Below the pieces are notes generated by a model that saw only the letters and a program-made list of their open reading frames with translations, ran no database searches and had not been told where the DNA came from. 31,461 bases of DNA from a virus (taxonomy: Duplodnaviria; Heunggongvirae; Uroviricota; Caudoviricetes). Positions 1 through 31,461 of this stretch are shown here, piece by piece. Location of the stretch: positions 1-31,461 of IMG/VR virus record IMGVR_UViG_2778261696_000004; one strand, written 5' to 3'. How positions within the stretch are numbered: position 1 is the first letter of the stretch; the number at the start of each line of letters is the position of its first letter. Both the position numbers and the translations under genes were made by a program.

Positions 1-68
1 ATTGTAACATTATTTACCACCACCTTTCAATCTTTTTCAATAAATTATTGATTGCAACTTTTGAGTAA

Positions 69-932
69 AGATACTTACGGACTTTCTACACCCATATCTC
101 CGACCAGTACGCGCCCTTCAGTGCCAAGGTGGTCAACGTGGGCATTCGTGATTCAACTTACGTGCTTGATGGCCTGCTGTACCACGAGTCGGACTTGCGC
201 ATCGAGGAACACTACACCGACACGGCAGGCTTCACCGATCACGTGTTTGGCTTGATGCATTTGCTGGGATTTCGCTTCGCGCCGCGTATCCGTGACTTGG
301 GCGAAACCAAGCTATTCATCCCCAAGGGCGATGCCGCCTATGACGCGCTCAAGCCGATGATTAGCAGCGACAGGCTGAACATCAAGCAAATACGCGCCCA
401 TTGGGATGAAATTCTGCGGCTGGCCACCTCCATCAAGCAAGGCACGGTAACGGCTTCGCTGATGCTGCGCAAACTCGGCAGCTACCCGCGCCAGAACGGC
501 TTGGCCGTGGCGTTGCGCGAGCTGGGGCGCATCGAGCGCACGCTGTTCATTTTGGATTGGCTGCAAAGCGTGGAGCTGCGCCGCCGCGTCCATGCGGGGC
601 TGAATAAGGGCGAGGCGCGCAACGCGCTGGCCAGGGCGGTCTTCTTCTACCGATTGGGTGAAATCCGCGACCGCAGTTTTGAGCAGCAGCGCTACCGGGC
701 CAGCGGCCTCAATCTGGTGACGGCGGCCATCGTGTTGTGGAACACGGTATATCTGGAGCGTGCCACCAGTGCTTTGCGTGGCAACGGCACGGCGCTGGAC
801 GACACATTGTTGCAATATCTGTCGCCGCTGGGGTGGGAGCACATCAACCTGACCGGCGATTACCTATGGCGCAGCAGCGCCAAGGTCGGTGCGGGGAAGT
901 TTAGGCCATTGCGACCGCTGCCACCGGCTTAG
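69..932 (+). pseudogene. tnpA: Tn21/Tn3-family transposase TnpA, C-terminal fragment (5'-truncated; frame open from 69, stop TAG 930-932)
   Basis: Translation (…[35 protein letters not shown]…[17 protein letters not shown]) matches my recollection of the C-terminus of Tn21-subgroup TnpA. The stop lies inside the terminal IR, as in Tn3-family elements. The N-terminal ~700 aa are absent. Confidence 0.85.
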
Positions 933-965
933 CGTGCTTTATTTTCCGTTTTCTGAGACGACCCC
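928..965. mobile_element. 38-bp terminal inverted repeat of a Tn21-subgroup transposon (tnpA-proximal end)
   Basis: Sequence cttagcgtgctttattttccgttttctgagacgacccc is the reverse complement of the Tn21-type IR GGGGTCGTCTCAGAAAACGGAAAATAAAGCACGCTAAG as I recall it. It ends at 965, where P1-like sequence begins. Confidence 0.8.
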
Positions 966-3020: not shown

Positions 3021-3043
3021 TTGACAATTGCTCTAATAAATTA
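3021..3043 (+). promoter_or_regulatory. C1 operator (ATTGCTCTAATAAATTA, 16/17) overlapping a TTGACA -35 hexamer
   Basis: TTGACAATTGCTCTAATAAATTATAG seen directly: -35-like hexamer fused to the operator, upstream of coi-c1. Confidence 0.7.
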
Positions 3044-3601: not shown

Positions 3602-4453
3602 ATGATAAATTATGTCTACGGCGAACAACTGTACCAGGAGTTCGTCAGCTTCAGGGATCTCTTTCTAAAAAAAGCTGTTGCACGCGCCCAACACGTTGAT
3701 ACAGCCAGCGACGGTCGTCCTGTACGCCCGGTTGTCGTTCTACCGTTCAAAGAAACTGACAGCATTCAGGCTGAAATTGATAAATGGACTTTAATGGCGC
3801 GGGAACTGGAACAGTACCCAGACCTCAATATCCCAAAGACTATTTTATATCCAGTGCCTAACATCCTTCGCGGTGTGCGCAAGGTTACAACTTATCAGAC
3901 AGAAGCTGTGAACAGCGTCAACATGACCGCTGGCCGCATTATTCATCTGATTGATAAGGACATTCGCATCCAAAAAAGCGCGGGGATCAATGAGCACAGT
4001 GCGAAATACATAGAGAACCTGGAAGCAACAAAAGAGCTAATGAGGCAGTACCCGGAGGATGAAAAATTCCGTATGCGCGTACACGGCTTTAGCGAAACAA
4101 TGCTGCGCGTCCACTACATTTCCAGTAGCCCTAACTACAATGATGGTAAATCAGTTAGTTACCATGTGCCACTGTGTGGCGTGTTTATCTGCGATGAAAC
4201 TCTCCGTGATGGAATTATCATCAACGGTGAATTCGAAAAAGCAAAATTTAGCCTTTATGACTCCATAGAACCGATCATCTGCGACCGCTGGCCGCAAGCA
4301 AAAATATATCGCCTGGCAGATATTGAAAATGTAAAAAAACAAATTGCCATCACTCGCGAAGAGAAAAAGGTTAAGTCAGCCGCATCAGTTACGCGCAGCC
4401 GTAAAACCAAGAAGGGGCAGCCAGTAAACGACAACCCCGAAAGCGCGCAATAA
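3602..4453 (+). CDS. c1: C1 repressor of lysis (primary immunity repressor)
   Basis: 283-aa translation (MINYVYGEQLYQEFVSFRDLFLKK…NDNPESAQ) matches P1 C1 as recalled. Cognate operators are distributed across the window. Confidence 0.93.
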   Translation: MINYVYGEQLYQEFVSFRDLFLKKAVARAQHVDTASDGRPVRPVVVLPFKETDSIQAEIDKWTLMARELEQYPDLNIPKTILYPVPNILRGVRKVTTYQTEAVNSVNMTAGRIIHLIDKDIRIQKSAGINEHSAKYIENLEATKELMRQYPEDEKFRMRVHGFSETMLRVHYISSSPNYNDGKSVSYHVPLCGVFICDETLRDGIIINGEFEKAKFSLYDSIEPIICDRWPQAKIYRLADIENVKKQIAITREEKKVKSAASVTRSRKTKKGQPVNDNPESAQ

Positions 4454-4485: not shown

Positions 4486-5601
4486 TTATTCAGCCGCCAC
4501 CGGTTTTAACAAGCCAGCATCGAGCAGTTTACGCGTCAACCACTGCTGGCCTTTACCCGTTAATTGAGGCGTCAACCGTATCTGGTAGCCATCTTCATCA
4601 TCCAGCACCACTTCTTTCACCGTGAAATACCCGGCGTTGATGTATTGCTGGAGCGGTACATTTTTACGCCCGCCGGACGCAATCAGGATGCCGTTCTCCC
4701 GTAACCAGGCAAACAGCGCGTTTTGCTTAAGTCCAACAACCTTTGCAAAATTCCCAATCAGGATCCCTTTAGCTACTGATACCCGGTCGGCAAAATCGAC
4801 TTTAGGAGCGGCGGCCACCAGCTGCTGATTTAGCTGGTGGGCTTTCTGTTCCAGAAGCTGCTTTTGTTCAGCCAGTTCGGCAGCCAGGCGCAGAGCTTCT
4901 GGAAGCGTCTGGGGGATTGCGATCGGTTGCTGTTCTTTTTGTCGGAAGTAGCTGTCTTCCAGTTTTTCAAAGAATGCCCATGCCTGATCGGTTTCGAGCA
5001 TTTTAGCGTGACGGGCAGCTCCTCGTTCTGTCCAGAGGATGAGAGAGCGCGCTTTGGGGGAGACTGGATTTTGTGAGTAGTTTAAAGCTACCCGCAAATT
5101 TTTCAGCTCATCGCCAATAACCTTGAAAAAGTGCTTCGCTTCAACAAAGCGTACTTTGTTCTCATGATGATTCTGGCGAATGCGAATCGCTTCTGTACCA
5201 TACCCCTTAGCAAGAGTTTCGGTTGTTACGACACGCACTCCCTGCCACTCCAGAACGGGAATTTCATCCGGCTGATTCTGAACAACCACCAGTTCCGATT
5301 CCTGAACTGAAGGTGCATAAATTTTTTCTGATTTAACGTTAGTTGCTTTCATTCTGTGTGCCTCCTTGCGTGCTTCGGCTGCGACGGTTGCGTAATTCAG
5401 ATGACCCTGTTCGAGCAGGTATTCACGGATATCGGTTAGCAGAATGCGGTGAACCGCGTGTTTGTCCTTTCTCCGGTAAAGTTGTTTGGTGATCATGAAG
5501 TAGTTGGCAATAACGCCAGGTATATCCCTGGTACTGATACAGGCAGTGTGCTGTTCAATTGCCTCGATCATCTCTTCACGGGTAACTAACGATGTTCTCA
5601 T
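4486..5601 (-). CDS. phage antirepressor (N-terminal Rha/ORF6N-like region, C-terminal KilAC/ANT domain), 371 aa
   Basis: C-terminal segment (AKGILIGNFAKVVGLKQNALFAWLRENGIL…PLQQYINAGYFTVKEVV…LTGKGQQWL) fits the KilA-C antirepressor pattern. Its start overlaps the stop of the upstream small ORF. Confidence 0.7.
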   Translation of the reverse strand: MRTSLVTREEMIEAIEQHTACISTRDIPGVIANYFMITKQLYRRKDKHAVHRILLTDIREYLLEQGHLNYATVAAEARKEAHRMKATNVKSEKIYAPSVQESELVVVQNQPDEIPVLEWQGVRVVTTETLAKGYGTEAIRIRQNHHENKVRFVEAKHFFKVIGDELKNLRVALNYSQNPVSPKARSLILWTERGAARHAKMLETDQAWAFFEKLEDSYFRQKEQQPIAIPQTLPEALRLAAELAEQKQLLEQKAHQLNQQLVAAAPKVDFADRVSVAKGILIGNFAKVVGLKQNALFAWLRENGILIASGGRKNVPLQQYINAGYFTVKEVVLDDEDGYQIRLTPQLTGKGQQWLTRKLLDAGLLKPVAAE

Positions 5602-5819
5602 AGTCCCTCCTGAGCAGAAGCGTTAACAGGGAGGCACCAGTAACTGAGAGAATTGCGTGAATCAGTGGAAAAACGGGCAGAGAAAATACATGGGGCGTCA
5701 GGAAGCTGAGAACGTGCCTCATCTTCTGTCGGTGCAATAACGAAGTGATAGTGACGTTTTTGGCAGGAGTAAAAGCGCCAGATAAATTCAGGATGAGCAG
5801 GGGTAGGGATAGTAGCCAC
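5598..5819 (-). CDS. small protein, Icd/Ash-like (putative cell-division-inhibitor family), 73 aa, GTG start
   Basis: TPAHPEFIWRF…EDEARSQL resembles Ash/Icd-like proteins as I recall them. AAGGAGG Shine-Dalgarno upstream; translationally coupled to the antirepressor, the same layout as icd-ant in P1 immI. Confidence 0.45.
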   Translation of the reverse strand: MATIPTPAHPEFIWRFYSCQKRHYHFVIAPTEDEARSQLPDAPCIFSARFSTDSRNSLSYWCLPVNASAQEGL

Positions 5820-6004
5820 AATGGCAGCCTCCTTTTGCTAATTTAAGGAGCTACCGCGTGAGGTCTCAATCTCAATGGCGGTAGCACTGACTGGGTTGAG
5901 ACTACCGGCGCAAAAGGGAACCGGCCTGCCTTTCGGCAGCCCAGCCAGCACTACCATTGATCTCCGAGCTAAACGCTACGTATGGCTGTGCGATGGCATG
6001 ACAC

Positions 6005-6028
6005 AAAAAAAAGACGCTTTTGGCGTCT
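6005..6028 (-). terminator. Rho-independent terminator (AGACGC-caaaa-GCGTCT followed by a run of 7-8 T) on the minus strand
   Basis: Perfect 6-bp stem and T-run seen directly. Lies about 140 nt downstream of the operator at 6160-6176 and upstream of the icd-like SD. Confidence 0.65.
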
Positions 6029-6159
6029 GTGTCGCCTTTTGCATTATCCGGGGTCTCAATCCCGGCACCCGTTTTAATGAGGTGCCTGATAAGCATAAAC
6101 CGAAAATGCCTCAAGGCGCAAGAGGTCAGGTTCAATGTAACATCGGCAGTTAAAAAACA
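6029..6159 (-). ncRNA. candidate small regulatory RNA (c4-like antisense RNA candidate)
   Basis: ORF-poor segment bounded by a C1 operator and an intrinsic terminator. Contains hairpin CCGGG-ATTGAGAC-CCCGG (6048-6065) whose loop is complementary to GTCTCAA in the icd-like leader (5893-5906). Confidence 0.4.
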
Positions 6160-6176
6160 CAATTTATTAGAGCAAA
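6160..6176 (-). promoter_or_regulatory. C1 operator (TTTGCTCTAATAAATTG, 15/17) directly downstream of the pacB stop
   Basis: 17-mer match on the minus strand, heading the sRNA / icd-like / antirepressor unit. Confidence 0.65.
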
Positions 6177-6179
6177 TAT

Positions 6180-7664
6180 TCATTCATTAAGCCATGCCAG
6201 AGCTTCATCAACCTGCGCTTCGTCTTCGACGCTAAGCACTTCATCCTGGGGAACATAATCCGCCAGCATAGCGAAACAATATGTATCCCAATGGTCTGGT
6301 GAGTGCAGGTTGAGTTTTTTCTTCATATCCTCCTTACTCATCACCTTCCATTGACCTGCGGAATTTATCCCGACCGGTATCTTTGATGCTTCCTCTATAG
6401 TCGCAGCCCCCTTATCAAGCCGCATACGCCCTGATTTTACAGCTTCTGCCGCCTGAATATTCGCGAAAGCGCGCATATCGAAATAAAGGCTTTTATCTTC
6501 ACGGCTGTGCATCTTTTTACCCCAGCGGATACGCTGGACGGTAATACCATAGCGTTCGTACATCAGATCAGCCGTCGATTTCCCCAAGCCATCGCCATCA
6601 ATAGCTATGGTTATGTTCGGGAACCGTTCTGGGTTACATTCTGCGAAAATCTTGGCGGCTAACTGCGTTTCTGTAACGTCTGTGTATTCCAGCATACGAT
6701 AGTTGATTACACGGCGTTTATTTCGCTGGCCGGACACCATCATGATATTAATAACGGACTTATCTCGTCCTGTGCCACCAGCAACGTCAACACATGCAAC
6801 CCAGCCCCATCCTTTGGCAATCTTGACCTTTCGCCGCGTCGCCCGCTCAACCTCATCACGACCAAGAAGAAAGCCATCTTGCGATTTGGGGAATTCACCA
6901 CGTACTTTGATCATGTACATGGGGTTATCACGACCGCCATACTCCGCAAGTTTTGCTCGTATAAATTTTGCATCTACAAGCGGAGATTCTTCACTATTCA
7001 GTATTATCGCAGTAAACAATCCATCAGGATTTCCCGGGCGAATAGCTAGTCTGTGGTGTGAATCGTAGAAATAGCCTGAAGGTCGCGTAGGCTGGGAAAG
7101 AAGCAGAATACGGTTATCCTTACCGGTCAGCGCACCTGTTATCACACTGAATGCTTTATCACTCACACCCGACGCTTCGTCGATGATATACAAGAGATGA
7201 TCGGCGTGTTCACCAGCCAACGCCTCCTCATTTCCGGGGCGACAGGACTTTATCAATATTGTCCAAACACCCTTGCCAGTCACCTCAAAAAAAGACGTTT
7301 CTGTAAGAATGAAATACTTCGACAACCACGGGAATCTGCTAACAGCAGTAGCCCAATTGCTCTTTATGTATTTGAAAATACCATCAAGGACTTGCTGTCT
7401 TTTGTTAGCGACCAGAATGACGCGAGCGCCGGGGAAAAACATGATGAAGAGTATTGCAATGATACTCGTCATATCCGATTTACCAGTACCATGGCCGGAG
7501 GTCACACTTGTCCAACTGCCGTCCTGCTGCGTGGACTCAATGATCTCATCCTGCTGCCAGGTTGGTGTCTTCCCAAACAACACATCAGCGGCCGCAATCC
7601 AGTCATAACGATATAGCGCCACCAGCTCGCGCCAACGTGGGTCCGTTACGCAACTTCTGGCCAT
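6180..7664 (-). CDS. pacB: PacB, terminase large (ATPase) subunit
   Basis: 494 aa with Walker A (SGHGTGKSD). Size and position downstream of pacA match P1 pacB. Confidence 0.88.
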
Positions 7665-14238: not shown

Positions 14239-14255
14239 AGATTTATTAGAGCAAT
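14239..14255 (-). promoter_or_regulatory. C1 operator (ATTGCTCTAATAAATCT, 16/17)
   Basis: Near-perfect 17-mer upstream of the peptide / 121-aa / 120-aa operon. Confidence 0.7.
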
Positions 14256-29200: not shown

Positions 29201-29872
29201 ACTTGCCGGGTACGTCTCCGGCGAGGGCTTCCACCTCCGTATGCTTTTCGGCGCACCGCGCCCTGGCTGCAATTCGGTAACAGGGGATGCACAACCCTGG
29301 CTTCCAGCGTGATTAGCGCCTTCAGCATGACGGGATATACCCGTAAATTCGTGGAACTGTACCCAAAGTGCTGTTAAGCACCGCTGTTACGCTGAAAAGA
29401 AAACGCAACAGGAAAGGACGCTGACCAACAGATGGCCCCTTCTCGTTCATCTGGTTAATCACACCAGCGCCCTTACCTGTTGTGCCTCCCCGTTCCCTAA
29501 TACACAGACGGGGACACTCTGCGGTCGATTTTTTGACGGGGGACGACTCATACCCCGTGGCATCTGGCTTCTTAGGCCGCTACCATCATCAGATCATCGT
29601 TTGCATTTACTTTAATGGTCAGTTTCTAAACCGCCGCAAAGTCGCTAACCATGACGAAAACCCTGAAAAAAACGCCCACCCGAAGATGGGCAAACTGGAA
29701 GCTCGTAACGCACTTCGGCGTTGCCACTTAGGCGCATGGTCAACCTGGCAACTCGGTGGTTTGTCTGGGAGGACTAGGCCCAGCCATGCTTACCGCCGCG
29801 CCTGTCGCGGCTAACAGCTAAATCGCTCTATAAATCACGATTCATTGAGGCGATATTACACTAATAAATTTA

Positions 29873-31461
<1,589 letters not shown>

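What the first reader, a model, noticed from the sequence alone, without database searches (positions are those of the whole stretch)
5828..6176. Structured leader with terminator, loop-to-leader complementarity and SD-sequestering hairpin: candidate c4-like antisense RNA
Between the operator and the icd-like start, the minus strand has no credible ORF but contains four elements. (1) A hairpin CCGGG-ATTGAGAC-CCCGG at 6048-6065. (2) A strong intrinsic terminator at 6005-6028. (3) A leader segment GGTAGTCTCAACCC (5893-5906) complementary to that hairpin loop, plus a same-sense ATTGAGATTGAGACC copy at 5860-5876. (4) A hairpin CTCCTT-N10-AAGGAG (5828-5852) that sequesters the icd-like Shine-Dalgarno. 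This is the layout expected for an antisense RNA that gates translation of icd-ant, as C4 does in P1/P7, but with a different sequence and therefore probably a different immunity specificity.
Basis: seen in the sequence. Interest (0 to 1): 0.75.

Follow-up and report, generated by a model that had tools for sequence, protein, structure and literature searches.

The report
Second C4 antisense-RNA immunity switch
This stretch of a P1-like phage-plasmid encodes a known kind of small antisense RNA (C4) with its upstream IsrK-like partner RNA, predicted to keep a second anti-repressor operon silent; it is a real but ordinary member of a known family, carrying a recognition code different from P1 and P7.

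Summary
The region is a complete C4-family immunity module on the minus strand. In order it holds a C1 operator and two promoters, an IsrK-like terminated sRNA (6085->6005, Rfam isrK 59 bits) carrying target copies a1 and b1, the C4 antisense RNA (5961->5874, Rfam C4 75 bits), targets a2 and b2 (b2 covers the Shine-Dalgarno), and then icd and ant. Its "leader segment" is C4's own a' recognition element. Its "hairpin + terminator" is the IsrK-like a1/b1 element. It missed the b'/b1/b2 set, which is the one that covers the ribosome site. Twenty different a/b codes in viral contigs co-vary three ways: cognate sites are fully paired in 76 of 80 cases, against about 6.5% for non-cognate codes. The code here (TTGAGAC / GCAAAAGG) differs from P1 and P7 but is shared with D6, JL22 and many plasmids. 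The module sits between pacB and c1. In four relatives and in a near-identical plasmid it comes in addition to the canonical immI. RefSeq records annotate the C4 gene as an "ash family protein", and RCS47 and JL22 annotate no RNA. Verdict: new member of a known kind, of modest interest.

The parts
6160..6176 (-). C1-repressor operator-like site TTTGCTCTAATAAATTG (15 of 17 to the P1 consensus), immediately after the pacB stop codon
   Evidence: 13 operator-like sites in the window against 0.15 expected by chance. It sits in the same position relative to the promoters as P1 Oc4/Op51.
6134..6162 (-). Upstream promoter candidate TTGTGT-17-TACATT overlapping the operator (counterpart of P1 P2c4/P51a, C1-repressible)
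   Evidence: Colinear with the annotated P1 P2c4 (TTGTAT-17-TATCTT). Inferred by position only; the consensus scan did not call it.
6092..6121 (-). Downstream promoter candidate TTGCGC-18-TATGCT (counterpart of P1 P1c4/P51b, constitutive); predicted start near 6085-6087
   Evidence: TTGCGC and a -10 element are kept in D6 although the sequence further upstream is unrelated. Other family members have a -10-like hexamer 7-9 nt before the first hairpin. Inferred.
6005..6085 (-). IsrK-like small RNA / a1-b1 element: hairpin 1, hairpin 2 with a1 in its loop, a single-stranded linker with b1, and an intrinsic terminator
   Evidence: Rfam isrK RF01394, 59 bits (GA 50), full length. The c4-a1b1 model also aligns here but only at 22 bits.
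6048..6065 (-). Hairpin CCGGG-ATTGAGAC-CCCGG presenting target copy a1 (TTGAGAC, 6053-6059) in its loop
6035..6042 (-). Target copy b1 (GCAAAAGG) in the single-stranded linker of the IsrK-like RNA
   Evidence: It co-varies with b' and b2 in RCS47 and 673R5 and across 20 codes.
6005..6028 (-). Intrinsic terminator AGACGC-CAAAA-GCGTCT plus T8, which ends the IsrK-like RNA; read-through is needed to make C4 and the icd-ant mRNA
   Evidence: The read-through requirement is inferred from P1 and Gifsy-1 (PMC4825925).
5874..5961 (-). C4 antisense RNA gene. The mature RNA is predicted to run 5955->5877 (79 nt), by analogy with the P1 annotation (6 nt trimmed 5', 3 nt trimmed 3')
   Evidence: Rfam C4 RF01695, 75 bits (GA 45), E=4e-13. 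The MFE fold equals the Rfam architecture at -46.4 kcal/mol. 26 pairs, 13 with double compensatory changes, none broken.
5910..5917 (-). b' recognition element CCUUUUGC in the loop of C4 hairpin 2
5863..5875 (-). Target a2: TTGAGAC (5863-5869) plus an overlapping G-U-tolerant copy TTGAGAT (5869-5875)
   Evidence: a2 is at a fixed offset in 20 of 20 code representatives.
5828..5838 (-). Target b2 GCAAAAGG (5831-5838) overlapping the icd Shine-Dalgarno AAGGAGG (5828-5834)
   Evidence: b2 is fully paired with the cognate b' in 19 of 20 representatives, against 2.8% for non-cognate codes.
5823..5855 (-). SD-sequestering hairpin GGUAGCUCCUU / AAGGAG-GCUGCC; its loop exposes the 5' half of b2
5598..5819 (-). 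icd-like gene (73 codons, GTG start). Its stop overlaps the ant start (ATGA at 5598-5601), which indicates translational coupling
   Evidence: 81% identical to P1 Icd. NCBIfam phage_ICD_like, 49.8 bits. The overlap is seen.
4486..5601 (-). Antirepressor gene, a mosaic paralogue of P1 Ant1 whose middle is replaced by an ORF6N domain
   Evidence: 56% identical to P1 Ant1 overall, with the C-terminal ~140 residues nearly identical. Pfam ANT and ORF6N.
5838..5957 (-). 39-codon ORF lying within the C4 gene and a2 region, annotated in RefSeq plasmids as 'ash family protein'. Most likely a protein-space shadow of the RNA gene
   Evidence: Pfam Phage_ASH, 29.1 bits (GA 26). PGAP annotation seen. The ORF length from the conserved AUG ranges from 14 codons to fully open among homologues, and its upstream GGAG is not kept in JL22, RCS47 or D6.

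Best explanation
The region is a complete C4-type antisense immunity module that gates a second icd-ant (antirepressor) operon of a P1-like phage-plasmid. Transcription runs leftward on the minus strand from a C1-operator-controlled promoter and a constitutive promoter just after pacB. Many transcripts are expected to stop at the intrinsic terminator, giving an IsrK-like sRNA of about 80 nt that displays a1 (in a hairpin loop) and b1 (in a single-stranded linker). Read-through transcripts contain the C4 structure. By analogy with P1, RNase P cuts it out to give a stable RNA of about 79 nt. C4's loop b' (CCUUUUGC) and joint a' (GUCUCAA) pair with b2 and a2 on the read-through mRNA. Because b2 overlaps the icd Shine-Dalgarno, icd is not translated, and the translationally coupled ant is not made either. 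A local hairpin that already buries the SD adds a second lock and exposes half of b2 in its loop. The a1/b1 copies on the IsrK-like RNA are target mimics that can bind C4. As shown for IsrK in Gifsy-1, excess short RNA would relieve repression. What is shown here: family membership, the fold, the complementarities, their three-way covariation, and the operon context. What is inferred: promoter use, RNase P processing, trans action, and the decoy role of the IsrK-like RNA. The a/b code differs from P1 and P7, so this circuit should be blind to P1/P7 C4. In a near-identical plasmid it coexists with a P7-code canonical immI.
For: Rfam C4 at 75 bits and isrK at 59 bits, both full length and above gathering. 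The MFE fold matches the C4 architecture. The alignment of 11 C4s has 26 pairs, 13 with double compensatory changes and none broken. Exact complements of a' and b' lie on both sides of C4, and 0 of 200,000 flank shuffles reproduce this. Three-way covariation among close relatives: RCS47 has b1 GTCAAAGG, b' CCUUUGAC and b2 GTCAAAGG, and 673R5 has a third a and b set. Across 20 codes from viral contigs, cognate sites are fully paired for a1 17/20, a2 20/20, b1 20/20 and b2 19/20, against 14%, 5.5%, 4% and 2.8% for non-cognate codes, at fixed positions. The layout is colinear with the annotated P1 immI: operator, two promoters, a1, b1, C4, a2, b2 over the SD, icd, ant. Icd is 81% and Ant 56% identical to the P1 proteins, and icd-ant overlap as ATGA. 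Summed duplex energies are -19.4 kcal/mol for the cognate pair against -11.7 (P1) and -13.9 (P7) targets. That gap is as large as the one between P1 and P7, which the literature reports as heteroimmune (PMC12197685, PMC6906374). IsrK pairing with the downstream RNA and activation of antirepressor translation were shown by compensatory mutations in Gifsy-1 (PMC4825925).
Against: There are no expression data for this element, so the RNA ends, RNase P cleavage and terminator read-through are all inferred. Both promoters are weak matches and the consensus scan did not call them. The dedicated Rfam model for P1-type a1/b1 elements scores only 22 bits here against a gathering score of 46.7, so equating the IsrK-like RNA with a1b1 rests on layout, reciprocal sub-threshold hits and covariation. 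In Gifsy-1 the ORF starting at the C4-like AUG is translated (PMC4825925), so a role for the 39-codon ORF is not fully excluded. Whether C4 acts in trans, in cis, or both cannot be told from sequence.
Confidence: 0.85

Rival explanations
1. Gifsy-1-type cis switch. The C4-like segment works mainly as part of the long mRNA: the IsrK portion pairs in cis with a'/b' to lock an inactive fold. The 39-codon ORF that starts at the conserved AUG (5957) is a translated leader whose translation opens the SD hairpin and couples to icd-ant. Short IsrK-like RNA in trans is the activator.
For: In Gifsy-1, orf45 starts at nt 107 of the isrK transcript (roughly where the C4-like 5' AUGG should lie; my inference), is translated, and is needed for anrP expression. 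IsrK-orf45 pairing was proven by compensatory mutations (PMC4825925). Here the ORF 5957->5838 ends with UAA in the loop of the SD hairpin, 19 nt before the icd GTG and in the same frame. In 14 of 20 family representatives that frame is open through to the downstream gene. GGAG lies 4 nt before the AUG in the window.
Against: The AUG is buried in the 17-bp closing stem of C4. The GGAG is not conserved in the nearest relatives: AGAG in JL22, CGAA in RCS47, CAAG in D6. The ORF stops after 14 codons in P1 and 15 in APSE-7. The Gifsy-1 paper itself reports that the nucleotide sequence is conserved while the amino-acid sequence varies. icd has its own strong SD, AAGGAGG. This model is compatible with the best explanation rather than exclusive of it.
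Confidence: 0.2
2. P4 CI-like attenuation. C4 binding to a1/b1 on the nascent leader promotes termination at 6005-6028, so C4 limits its own synthesis and transcription into icd-ant. The upstream sites are control sites rather than decoys.
For: In the window the unconstrained MFE of the leader uses GGCG (just 3' of b1) paired with CGCC of the terminator's 5' arm, and blocking a1/b1 switches the MFE to the terminator hairpin. P1 and the D6 canonical copy behave the same way. The IsrK paper raises this possibility for STnc1160 by analogy with P4 CI/seqA.
Against: In six of ten modules tested (RCS47-2, 673R5-2, phiP27, APSE-7, F039, P7) the terminator forms whether or not a1/b1 are blocked, and 673R5-1 showed no clear terminator when blocked. 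RCS47-2 differs from the window by only a few bases. The energy differences are about 1 kcal/mol in the window. In Gifsy-1, constitutive STnc1160 did not reduce the IsrK effect.
Confidence: 0.15
3. One reading: the hairpin-plus-terminator RNA (6085->6005) is itself the antisense repressor, and the 5893-5906 segment and the SD hairpin are its targets.
For: The loop-to-segment complementarity is real, and the terminated RNA is very probably made.
Against: The hairpin loop has the same sense as the sites next to the SD (a1 = a2, b1 = b2), so it cannot pair with the icd leader. It can only pair with C4. The segment 5893-5906 lies inside a full-length C4 match. In P1 the equivalent upstream sites are annotated as targets. 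In Gifsy-1 the short RNA activates rather than represses (PMC4825925).
Confidence: 0.03
4. The region is protein-coding: the 93-codon ORF 5902-6183 or the 39-codon 'Ash family' ORF 5838-5957 is the functional product.
For: Pfam Phage_ASH, 29.1 bits against a gathering score of 26 for the 39-codon ORF. PGAP annotates it in many plasmids. JL22 annotates a 68-codon version of the other ORF.
Against: The 93-codon ORF is truncated to 68 codons by a 1-nt indel in JL22 and RCS47, is absent in D6 and differs in 673R5, and has no family match. The Ash ORF has no NCBIfam hit and variable length. Variation in the region is compensatory for RNA stems, not codon-like.
Confidence: 0.03

Closest known systems
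C4 antisense RNA of phages P1 and P7 (immI operon; Rfam RF01695)
   Same: Same three-helix fold. The b' element is in the hairpin-2 loop and a' in the single-stranded joint. Target copies a1/b1 lie upstream and a2/b2 downstream, with b2 over the icd SD. The module has a C1 operator plus two promoters, and icd and ant are translationally coupled.
   Different: The a/b sequences differ: TTGAGAC/GCAAAAGG here, TTGACAG/GTTAGTG in P1 and TTAGCAG/GATTGTG in P7. The closing-stem sequence differs. The upstream element scores as isrK rather than c4-a1b1. In this clade b2 includes the SD core AAGG itself. The module sits between pacB and c1 instead of between sim and kilA, and in relatives it is additional to the canonical immI. 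Ant carries an ORF6N middle domain.
IsrK sRNA / isrK-orf45-anrP locus of Salmonella Gifsy-1 (Rfam RF01394; PMC4825925)
   Same: A terminated sRNA of about 77 nt lies directly upstream of a structured RNA (STnc1160/orf45) and an antirepressor gene. The short RNA is complementary to the downstream RNA, and read-through of its terminator makes the mRNA.
   Different: Here a separate icd gene with its own SD lies between C4 and ant, and the C4-overlapping ORF stops before it. A C1 operator controls the module. No experimental data exist for this element. I could not retrieve the Gifsy-1 sequence to map its mutations onto a1/a' directly.
isrK + C4 tandem modules of Stx-converting phages, phiP27 and APSE phages
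   Same: Same isrK-then-C4 tandem upstream of an antirepressor/Rha/BRO-type gene, and the same clade of C4 (b' begins CCUU, b2 includes AAGG). Some records annotate both RNAs and putative a'/b' regions.
   Different: Those are lambdoid or podovirus-type phages without a C1 operator, and they mostly lack icd. Their a/b codes differ, except that APSE-7 shares the a code TTGAGAC.
Second c4/icd region of phage D6 and D6-like plasmid prophages (PMC6799933)
   Same: D6 carries a nearly identical IsrK-like + C4 + icd + ant module (92% identity) with the same a/b code as the window, in addition to a canonical immI-like region.
   Different: In D6 the module lies after ref, not between pacB and c1, and it lacks the C1 operator and upstream promoter segment.
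CI RNA / seqA-seqC immunity of satellite phage P4
   Same: A processed small RNA with upstream and downstream complementary sites. The Pfam 'Ash' family overlapping these RNAs takes its name from P4 (comparison made in PMC4825925).
   Different: P4 CI acts by premature transcription termination. A comparable switch was not consistently predicted here.

Membership tests
C4 antisense RNA (Rfam RF01695) | Covariance-model score at or above the curated gathering score, over the full model | tested here: met
   75 bits against GA 45, model positions 1-87 of 87, E=4e-13
C4 antisense RNA (Rfam RF01695) | Long closing stem enclosing two hairpins and a single-stranded joint, supported by covariation | tested here: met
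   The MFE fold equals the model structure. 26 pairs, 13 with double compensatory changes, 0 broken in 11 sequences.
C4 antisense RNA (Rfam RF01695) | Two exposed elements (a', b') complementary to sites a2/b2 in the leader of the downstream gene, with b2 over its ribosome-binding site | tested here: met
   a' 5896-5902 pairs with a2 5863-5869. b' 5910-5917 pairs with b2 5831-5838, which overlaps the SD 5828-5834. Covariation holds across 20 codes.
C4 antisense RNA (Rfam RF01695) | Second copies of the target sites (a1, b1) upstream of the RNA gene | tested here: met
   a1 6053-6059 and b1 6035-6042. Cognate in 17/20 and 20/20 representatives.
C4 antisense RNA (Rfam RF01695) | Excised from a longer transcript by RNase P to a stable RNA of about 77 nt | not testable with these tools
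   Only sequence hints are available: the conserved AU|GG at the 5' junction and a GCCA tail after the closing stem. The role of RNase P is recalled from the P1 literature, not tested.
C4 antisense RNA (Rfam RF01695) | Represses translation of icd/ant in trans and sets immunity specificity | not testable with these tools
   Predicted from pairing energies: cognate -19.4 against -10.5 to -14.6 kcal/mol for non-cognate targets.
IsrK sRNA (Rfam RF01394) | Covariance-model score at or above gathering; two 5' hairpins, a linker and an intrinsic terminator | tested here: met
   59 bits against GA 50, model positions 1-77 of 77. The terminator was found independently.
IsrK sRNA (Rfam RF01394) | Own promoter giving a primary transcript of about 77 nt | tested here: inconclusive
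   TTGCGC-18-TATGCT ends 7 nt before the model start and is conserved in D6, but it falls below the scan's threshold.
IsrK sRNA (Rfam RF01394) | Hfq binding and trans-activation of the downstream antirepressor | not testable with these tools
   Shown only for Gifsy-1 (PMC4825925).
c4-a1b1 motif (Rfam RF03163) | Covariance-model score at or above gathering | tested here: not met
   22.3 bits against GA 46.7 at 6045-6098. P1/P7-type leaders score 51-56 bits. I therefore do not file it as a member of this model, although it plays the same positional role.
P1 immI operon | C1 operator overlapping the upstream one of two promoters | tested here: met
   The operator at 6160-6176 has 2 mismatches to consensus. 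The hexamers are colinear with P1 P2c4/P1c4. Promoter activity itself was not tested.
P1 immI operon | Genomic position sim - c4 - icd - ant1/2 - kilA - repL | tested here: not met
   Here the order is pacB - module - ant, then a convergent c1. The canonical immI is a separate locus in RCS47, JL22, 673R5 and pEC18-3.
Ash protein family (Pfam PF10554) | A conserved translated ORF | tested here: not met
   The HMM score of 29.1 passes GA 26. However, the ORF from the conserved AUG ranges from 14 codons to fully open among homologues, its SD is not conserved, and it has no NCBIfam hit. The match is best explained by translation of a conserved RNA gene.

The most novel reading that the evidence does not exclude
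P1-like phage-plasmids carry two independent antirepressor operons, each locked by its own C4 RNA with a mutually blind a/b code (here a P7-type code plus TTGAGAC/GCAAAAGG). Both operons are wired to the C1 operator network. The a and b elements reassort combinatorially: 10 a codes and 11 b codes were seen in 20 combinations. The second module would then act as a 'second key'. It would widen the set of superinfecting relatives a lysogen can silence, and it would let the phage break the immunity of lysogens that lack its second code. The IsrK-like RNA would be the natural anti-antisense that tunes the lock. This would place the P1 C4, Gifsy-1 IsrK and P4 CI systems in one mechanistic family.
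Probability: 0.35. Interest if true: 0.55.

Novelty: new member of a known kind. Interest (0 to 1): 0.33.

Why it matters
There are three practical points. First, annotation: hundreds of P1-like plasmids and phages such as RCS47 and JL22 either label this C4 gene as an "ash family protein" or hypothetical ORFs, or leave it blank. The one paper I found that describes the pacB-c1 insertion calls it two hypothetical ORFs plus ant (PMC6906374). Second, biology: these widespread phage-plasmids, which often carry resistance genes, appear to run two antisense-gated antirepressor circuits with different codes. That should shape which P1-like elements can coexist in, or induce each other within, one cell. 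Third, the natural set of about 20 three-way-matched a/b codes is a ready-made panel of probably orthogonal RNA repressor/target pairs for testing specificity rules or for synthetic biology. None of this changes the known mechanism of C4.

Tried and rejected
(1) The 93-codon ORF 5902-6183 as a gene was rejected. It has a frameshift in JL22 and RCS47, is absent in D6, and has no family hit.

(2) The 39-codon Ash ORF as the functional product was rejected as the main reading. It is kept as a minor rival because of the Gifsy-1 orf45 data.

(3) An anti-terminator switch driven by C4 binding to a1/b1 was predicted in the window, P1 and the D6 canonical copy, but not in six of the ten modules. It remains inconclusive.

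(4) A separate promoter for C4 between the terminator and C4: none was found. The only minus-strand promoter-like hit, TTGAGA-18-TAAATT at 5869-5840, lies downstream of C4 and is a bare 9/12 consensus match.

(5) Filing the upstream element under Rfam c4-a1b1 was not justified, since it scores 22 bits against GA 46.7.

(6) Retrieving the Gifsy-1 locus to map the published IsrK mutations onto a1/a' failed. It was not among the listed hits, so the mapping rests on consensus numbering and is only an inference.

(7) Uniqueness of the specificity was rejected. The same code occurs in D6, JL22, 12 distinct viral-contig sequences and plasmids identical over the region.

(8) One literature search failed for a formal reason, a term that was too short.
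Full report
**1. What is in the sequence**

Read on the minus strand, the interval 6176->5819 lies between the stop codon of a pacB-like terminase gene (6180-7664) and a 73-codon icd-like gene (5598-5819). The icd-like gene is followed by a 371-codon antirepressor gene (4486-5601), and a c1 repressor gene converges from the other side (3602-4453, + strand).

- the hairpin CCGGG-ATTGAGAC-CCCGG at 6048-6065;
- the terminator AGACGC-CAAAA-GCGTCT plus T8 at 6005-6028, also called by the terminator scan;
- GGTAGTCTCAACCC at 5893-5906;
- ATTGAGATTGAGACC at 5860-5876;
- the SD hairpin, which is longer than described: GGTAGCTCCTT at 5845-5855 pairs with AAGGAG-GCTGCC at 5823-5834.

**2. What it is**

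A scan of the whole window against Rfam gives two full-length matches above the curated thresholds. C4 antisense RNA (RF01695) matches 5874-5961(-) with 75 bits (gathering score 45). isrK (RF01394) matches 6007-6085(-) with 59 bits (gathering score 50).

The annotated P1 immI region gives the reference anatomy: operator Oc4, promoters P2c4 and P1c4, a1, b1, C4, a2, b2 (over the SD), icd, ant. In P1, b' is the loop of hairpin 2 and a' is the single-stranded joint.

Transferring this to the window gives the following sites:

| Element | Sequence | Coordinates |
|---|---|---|
| b' | CCUUUUGC | 5910-5917 |
| a' | GUCUCAA | 5896-5902 |
| a1 | TTGAGAC | 6053-6059 (hairpin loop) |
| b1 | GCAAAAGG | 6035-6042 (linker) |
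| a2 | TTGAGAC | 5863-5869, plus a G-U-tolerant copy at 5869-5875 |
| b2 | GCAAAAGG | 5831-5838, overlapping the SD AAGGAGG at 5828-5834 |

With C4 held fixed and the flanks shuffled, none of 200,000 shuffles reproduced both site pairs.

The operator TTTGCTCTAATAAATTG (6160-6176) is one of 13 C1-operator-like sites in the window, against 0.15 expected by chance. Two hexamer pairs are colinear with P1's P2c4 and P1c4: TTGTGT-17-TACATT at 6162-6134 and TTGCGC-18-TATGCT at 6121-6092. The second is retained in D6 although the sequence upstream of it is unrelated. Promoter activity is inferred, and the consensus scan did not call either pair.

**3. Evidence that the RNA logic is functional**

*The fold.* The MFE of 5961-5874 reproduces the Rfam architecture at -46.4 kcal/mol. 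In an alignment of 11 C4s, all 26 predicted pairs are kept, and 13 show changes on both sides.

*Natural compensatory series in close relatives.*

| Phage(s) | a1 | a' | a2 | b1 | b' | b2 |
|---|---|---|---|---|---|---|
| window, JL22, D6 | TTGAGAC | GUCUCAA | TTGAGAC | GCAAAAGG | CCUUUUGC | GCAAAAGG |
| RCS47 | TTGAGAC | GUCUCAA | TTGAGAC | GTCAAAGG | CCUUUGAC | GTCAAAGG |
| 673R5 | TTGGCCT | AGGCCAA | TTGGTCT | GTCTAAGG | CCUUGGAC | GTCTAAGG |

*A large sample.* I scanned viral contigs with a pattern that fixes the hairpin-2 stem but leaves a' and b' free. This returned 119 loci, 94 distinct modules and 20 (a,b) codes. Taking one representative per code, the cognate sites are fully paired (Watson-Crick or G-U) as follows:

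| Site | Cognate fully paired | Non-cognate fully paired |
|---|---|---|
| a1 | 17/20 | 14% |
| a2 | 20/20 | 5.5% |
| b1 | 20/20 | 4% |
| b2 | 19/20 | 2.8% |

The sites also sit at fixed offsets.

*SD occlusion.* For the window-type leader the SD has an unpaired probability of 0.11, against 0.37 when the upstream part is shuffled (2 of 100 shuffles were as low). In 19 of 20 representatives the SD is more occluded than the shuffle mean. Two different partner arrangements achieve this.

**4. The ORFs**

*The 93-codon ORF (5902-6183).* It is cut to 68 codons in JL22 and RCS47 by the T8/T7 indel in the terminator tail. It is absent in D6 and different in 673R5. It has no Pfam or NCBIfam match.

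*The 39-codon ORF (5838-5957).* It lies within the C4 gene and a2 region, matches Pfam Phage_ASH (29.1 bits, cut-off 26), and is what PGAP calls "ash family protein" in identical plasmids. It starts at the AUG of the conserved AUGG at the C4 5' junction. From that AUG the frame stops after 14 codons in P1, 15 in APSE-7 and 31 in P7, and is open in others. The GGAG before it is not conserved even among the nearest relatives. I read it as the protein-space shadow of an RNA gene.

There is one caveat. In Gifsy-1 the ORF downstream of IsrK (orf45) starts at nt 107 of the transcript, which is about where the C4-like AUGG should lie, and it is translated (PMC4825925). A leader-ORF role is therefore kept as a minor rival.

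**5. How it most likely works**

*Shown here:* family membership, fold, complementarity, covariation, and operon context. Icd is 81% identical to P1 Icd. Ant is 56% identical overall, with N- and C-terminal parts of P1 Ant1 around an ORF6N domain. The icd stop and ant start overlap as ATGA.

*Inferred from P1 (annotation; review text in PMC12197685) and from Gifsy-1 (PMC4825925):*
- Transcripts start at the two promoters.
- Many transcripts stop at 6005-6028, giving the IsrK-like RNA.
- Read-through transcripts carry C4, which is excised. RNase P involvement is recalled from the P1 literature. The predicted mature RNA is 5955->5877, by applying the P1 annotation offsets.
- C4 pairs with a2 and b2 and blocks the icd SD, so the coupled ant is silent.
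- The IsrK-like RNA displays a1 in a loop and b1 in a linker, the mirror image of C4 (b' in a loop, a' in a joint). It can therefore bind C4.
- In Gifsy-1 this pairing was proven by compensatory mutations, and excess short RNA activates antirepressor translation.

*An alternative I tested.* C4 binding at a1/b1 might favour the terminator, as CI does in P4. Blocking a1/b1 switches the MFE to the terminator in the window, P1 and the D6 canonical copy. In six of ten modules the terminator forms either way. The result is inconclusive.

**6. Specificity**

Summed duplex energies for a' and b' against the downstream leaders are:

| C4 | Target leader | Energy (kcal/mol) |
|---|---|---|
| window | window (cognate) | -19.4 |
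| window | P1 | -11.7 |
| window | P7 | -13.9 |
| window | RCS47 second module | -13.6 |
| P1 | P1 (cognate) | -15.6 |
| P1 | P7 | -6.6 |
| P7 | P7 (cognate) | -16.3 |
| P7 | P1 | -12.8 |

P1 and P7 are reported to be heteroimmune (PMC12197685, PMC6906374). The prediction of a specificity distinct from P1/P7 is therefore reasonable.

The code is not unique, however. It is shared with D6 and JL22, with 12 distinct viral-contig sequences, and with plasmids identical over the region.

**7. Context and distribution**

P1 and P7 match the query only up to the pacB stop, so the module is an insertion between pacB and c1. The same arrangement occurs in RCS47, JL22 and 673R5. In PLSDB, 293 plasmids carry at least 80% of the region.

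RCS47, JL22, 673R5 and D6 also carry a canonical P1/P7-type immI. The plasmid pEC18-3 is 99.6% identical to the window over 24 kb. It has a P7-code C4 next to icd-ant-kilA-repL as well as this module. The window itself does not reach that locus.

The C4 of this module belongs to the clade found with isrK in Stx phages, phiP27 and APSE, where a few records annotate both RNAs. It does not belong to the P1/P7 clade, whose upstream element scores as c4-a1b1. Reciprocal sub-threshold hits indicate that the two upstream elements are related. The isrK model scores 35-46 bits on P1-type leaders. The c4-a1b1 model scores 22 bits on the window and 46 bits on APSE.

**8. Literature**

Venturini et al. 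[quoted passage not shown] RCS47", without recognising an RNA (PMC6906374). A study of D6-like plasmids notes a second region homologous to the antisense RNA and icd (PMC6799933). I found no description of the a/b code of this module, or of dual C4 circuits in P1-like phage-plasmids. The searchable library is limited, so this is absence of evidence only.

**9. Verdict**

The interpretation, a C4-like antisense RNA gating icd-ant with a specificity different from P1/P7, is supported, but with the parts re-assigned. This is a new member of a known kind: both RNAs are recognised by existing curated models, and the mechanism is the established C4/IsrK logic. Interest is modest. It rests on the widespread mis-annotation, the coexistence of two differently coded circuits in one element, and the natural panel of matched codes.

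Noticed in passing
window 5838-5957 (-); L010 2794-2913: RefSeq/PGAP annotates a 39-codon 'ash family protein' that lies within the C4 RNA gene and a2 region. The Pfam Phage_ASH family (PF10554) seems to be built at least partly on translations of C4/CI-type RNA genes.
   Followed up: partly
L003 2574-2653 (phage D6), about 470 nt upstream of its IsrK-like/C4 module: A third, divergent C4-like RNA in D6 (Rfam C4 at 40 bits, below gathering). It has the same three-helix fold and its own cognate downstream sites: TGGAAC, and GGAGTCA over an AAGGAG SD, ahead of small ORFs. D6 may run three C4-type switches.
   Followed up: partly
L067 (IMGVR_UViG_2698536372_000019), 975-1005 and 2541-2571: The whole IsrK-like/C4 module, with identical sequence and code (TTGGCCT/GTCCAAGG), occurs twice 1.5 kb apart on one viral contig. 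This is either a tandem duplication or an assembly repeat.
   Followed up: partly
window 5957 versus 5819; L005 342 versus 471: The conserved AUG at the C4 5' junction is in the same reading frame as the icd start, both here (138 nt apart) and in P1 (129 nt apart). In 14 of 20 family representatives that frame has no stop before the downstream gene. This explains mis-annotated long ORFs such as phiP27 L16. It may simply reflect conserved spacing, and it remains unexplained.
   Followed up: partly
window 1383-29882 (13 sites, e.g. 29866-29882, 3027-3043, 14239-14255): There are thirteen C1-operator-like sites (3 or fewer mismatches to ATTGCTCTAATAAATTT) against 0.15 expected by chance. This is the dispersed C1 regulon typical of P1.
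   Followed up: no
window 27543-27615, 29050-29122, 29128-29200 (-): Three tRNA genes, as in the P1 tRNA region.
   Followed up: no
window 5840-5869 (-): A promoter-like site, TTGAGA-18-TAAATT (9/12 match), lies between C4 and the icd SD. If active it would give icd-ant transcripts that lack C4 and a2. It is probably a chance match.
   Followed up: no
window 1-965: The first ~965 bases of the window are not covered by the otherwise 99.6%-identical match to plasmid pEC18-3, which suggests a local difference or insertion at that end.
   Followed up: no
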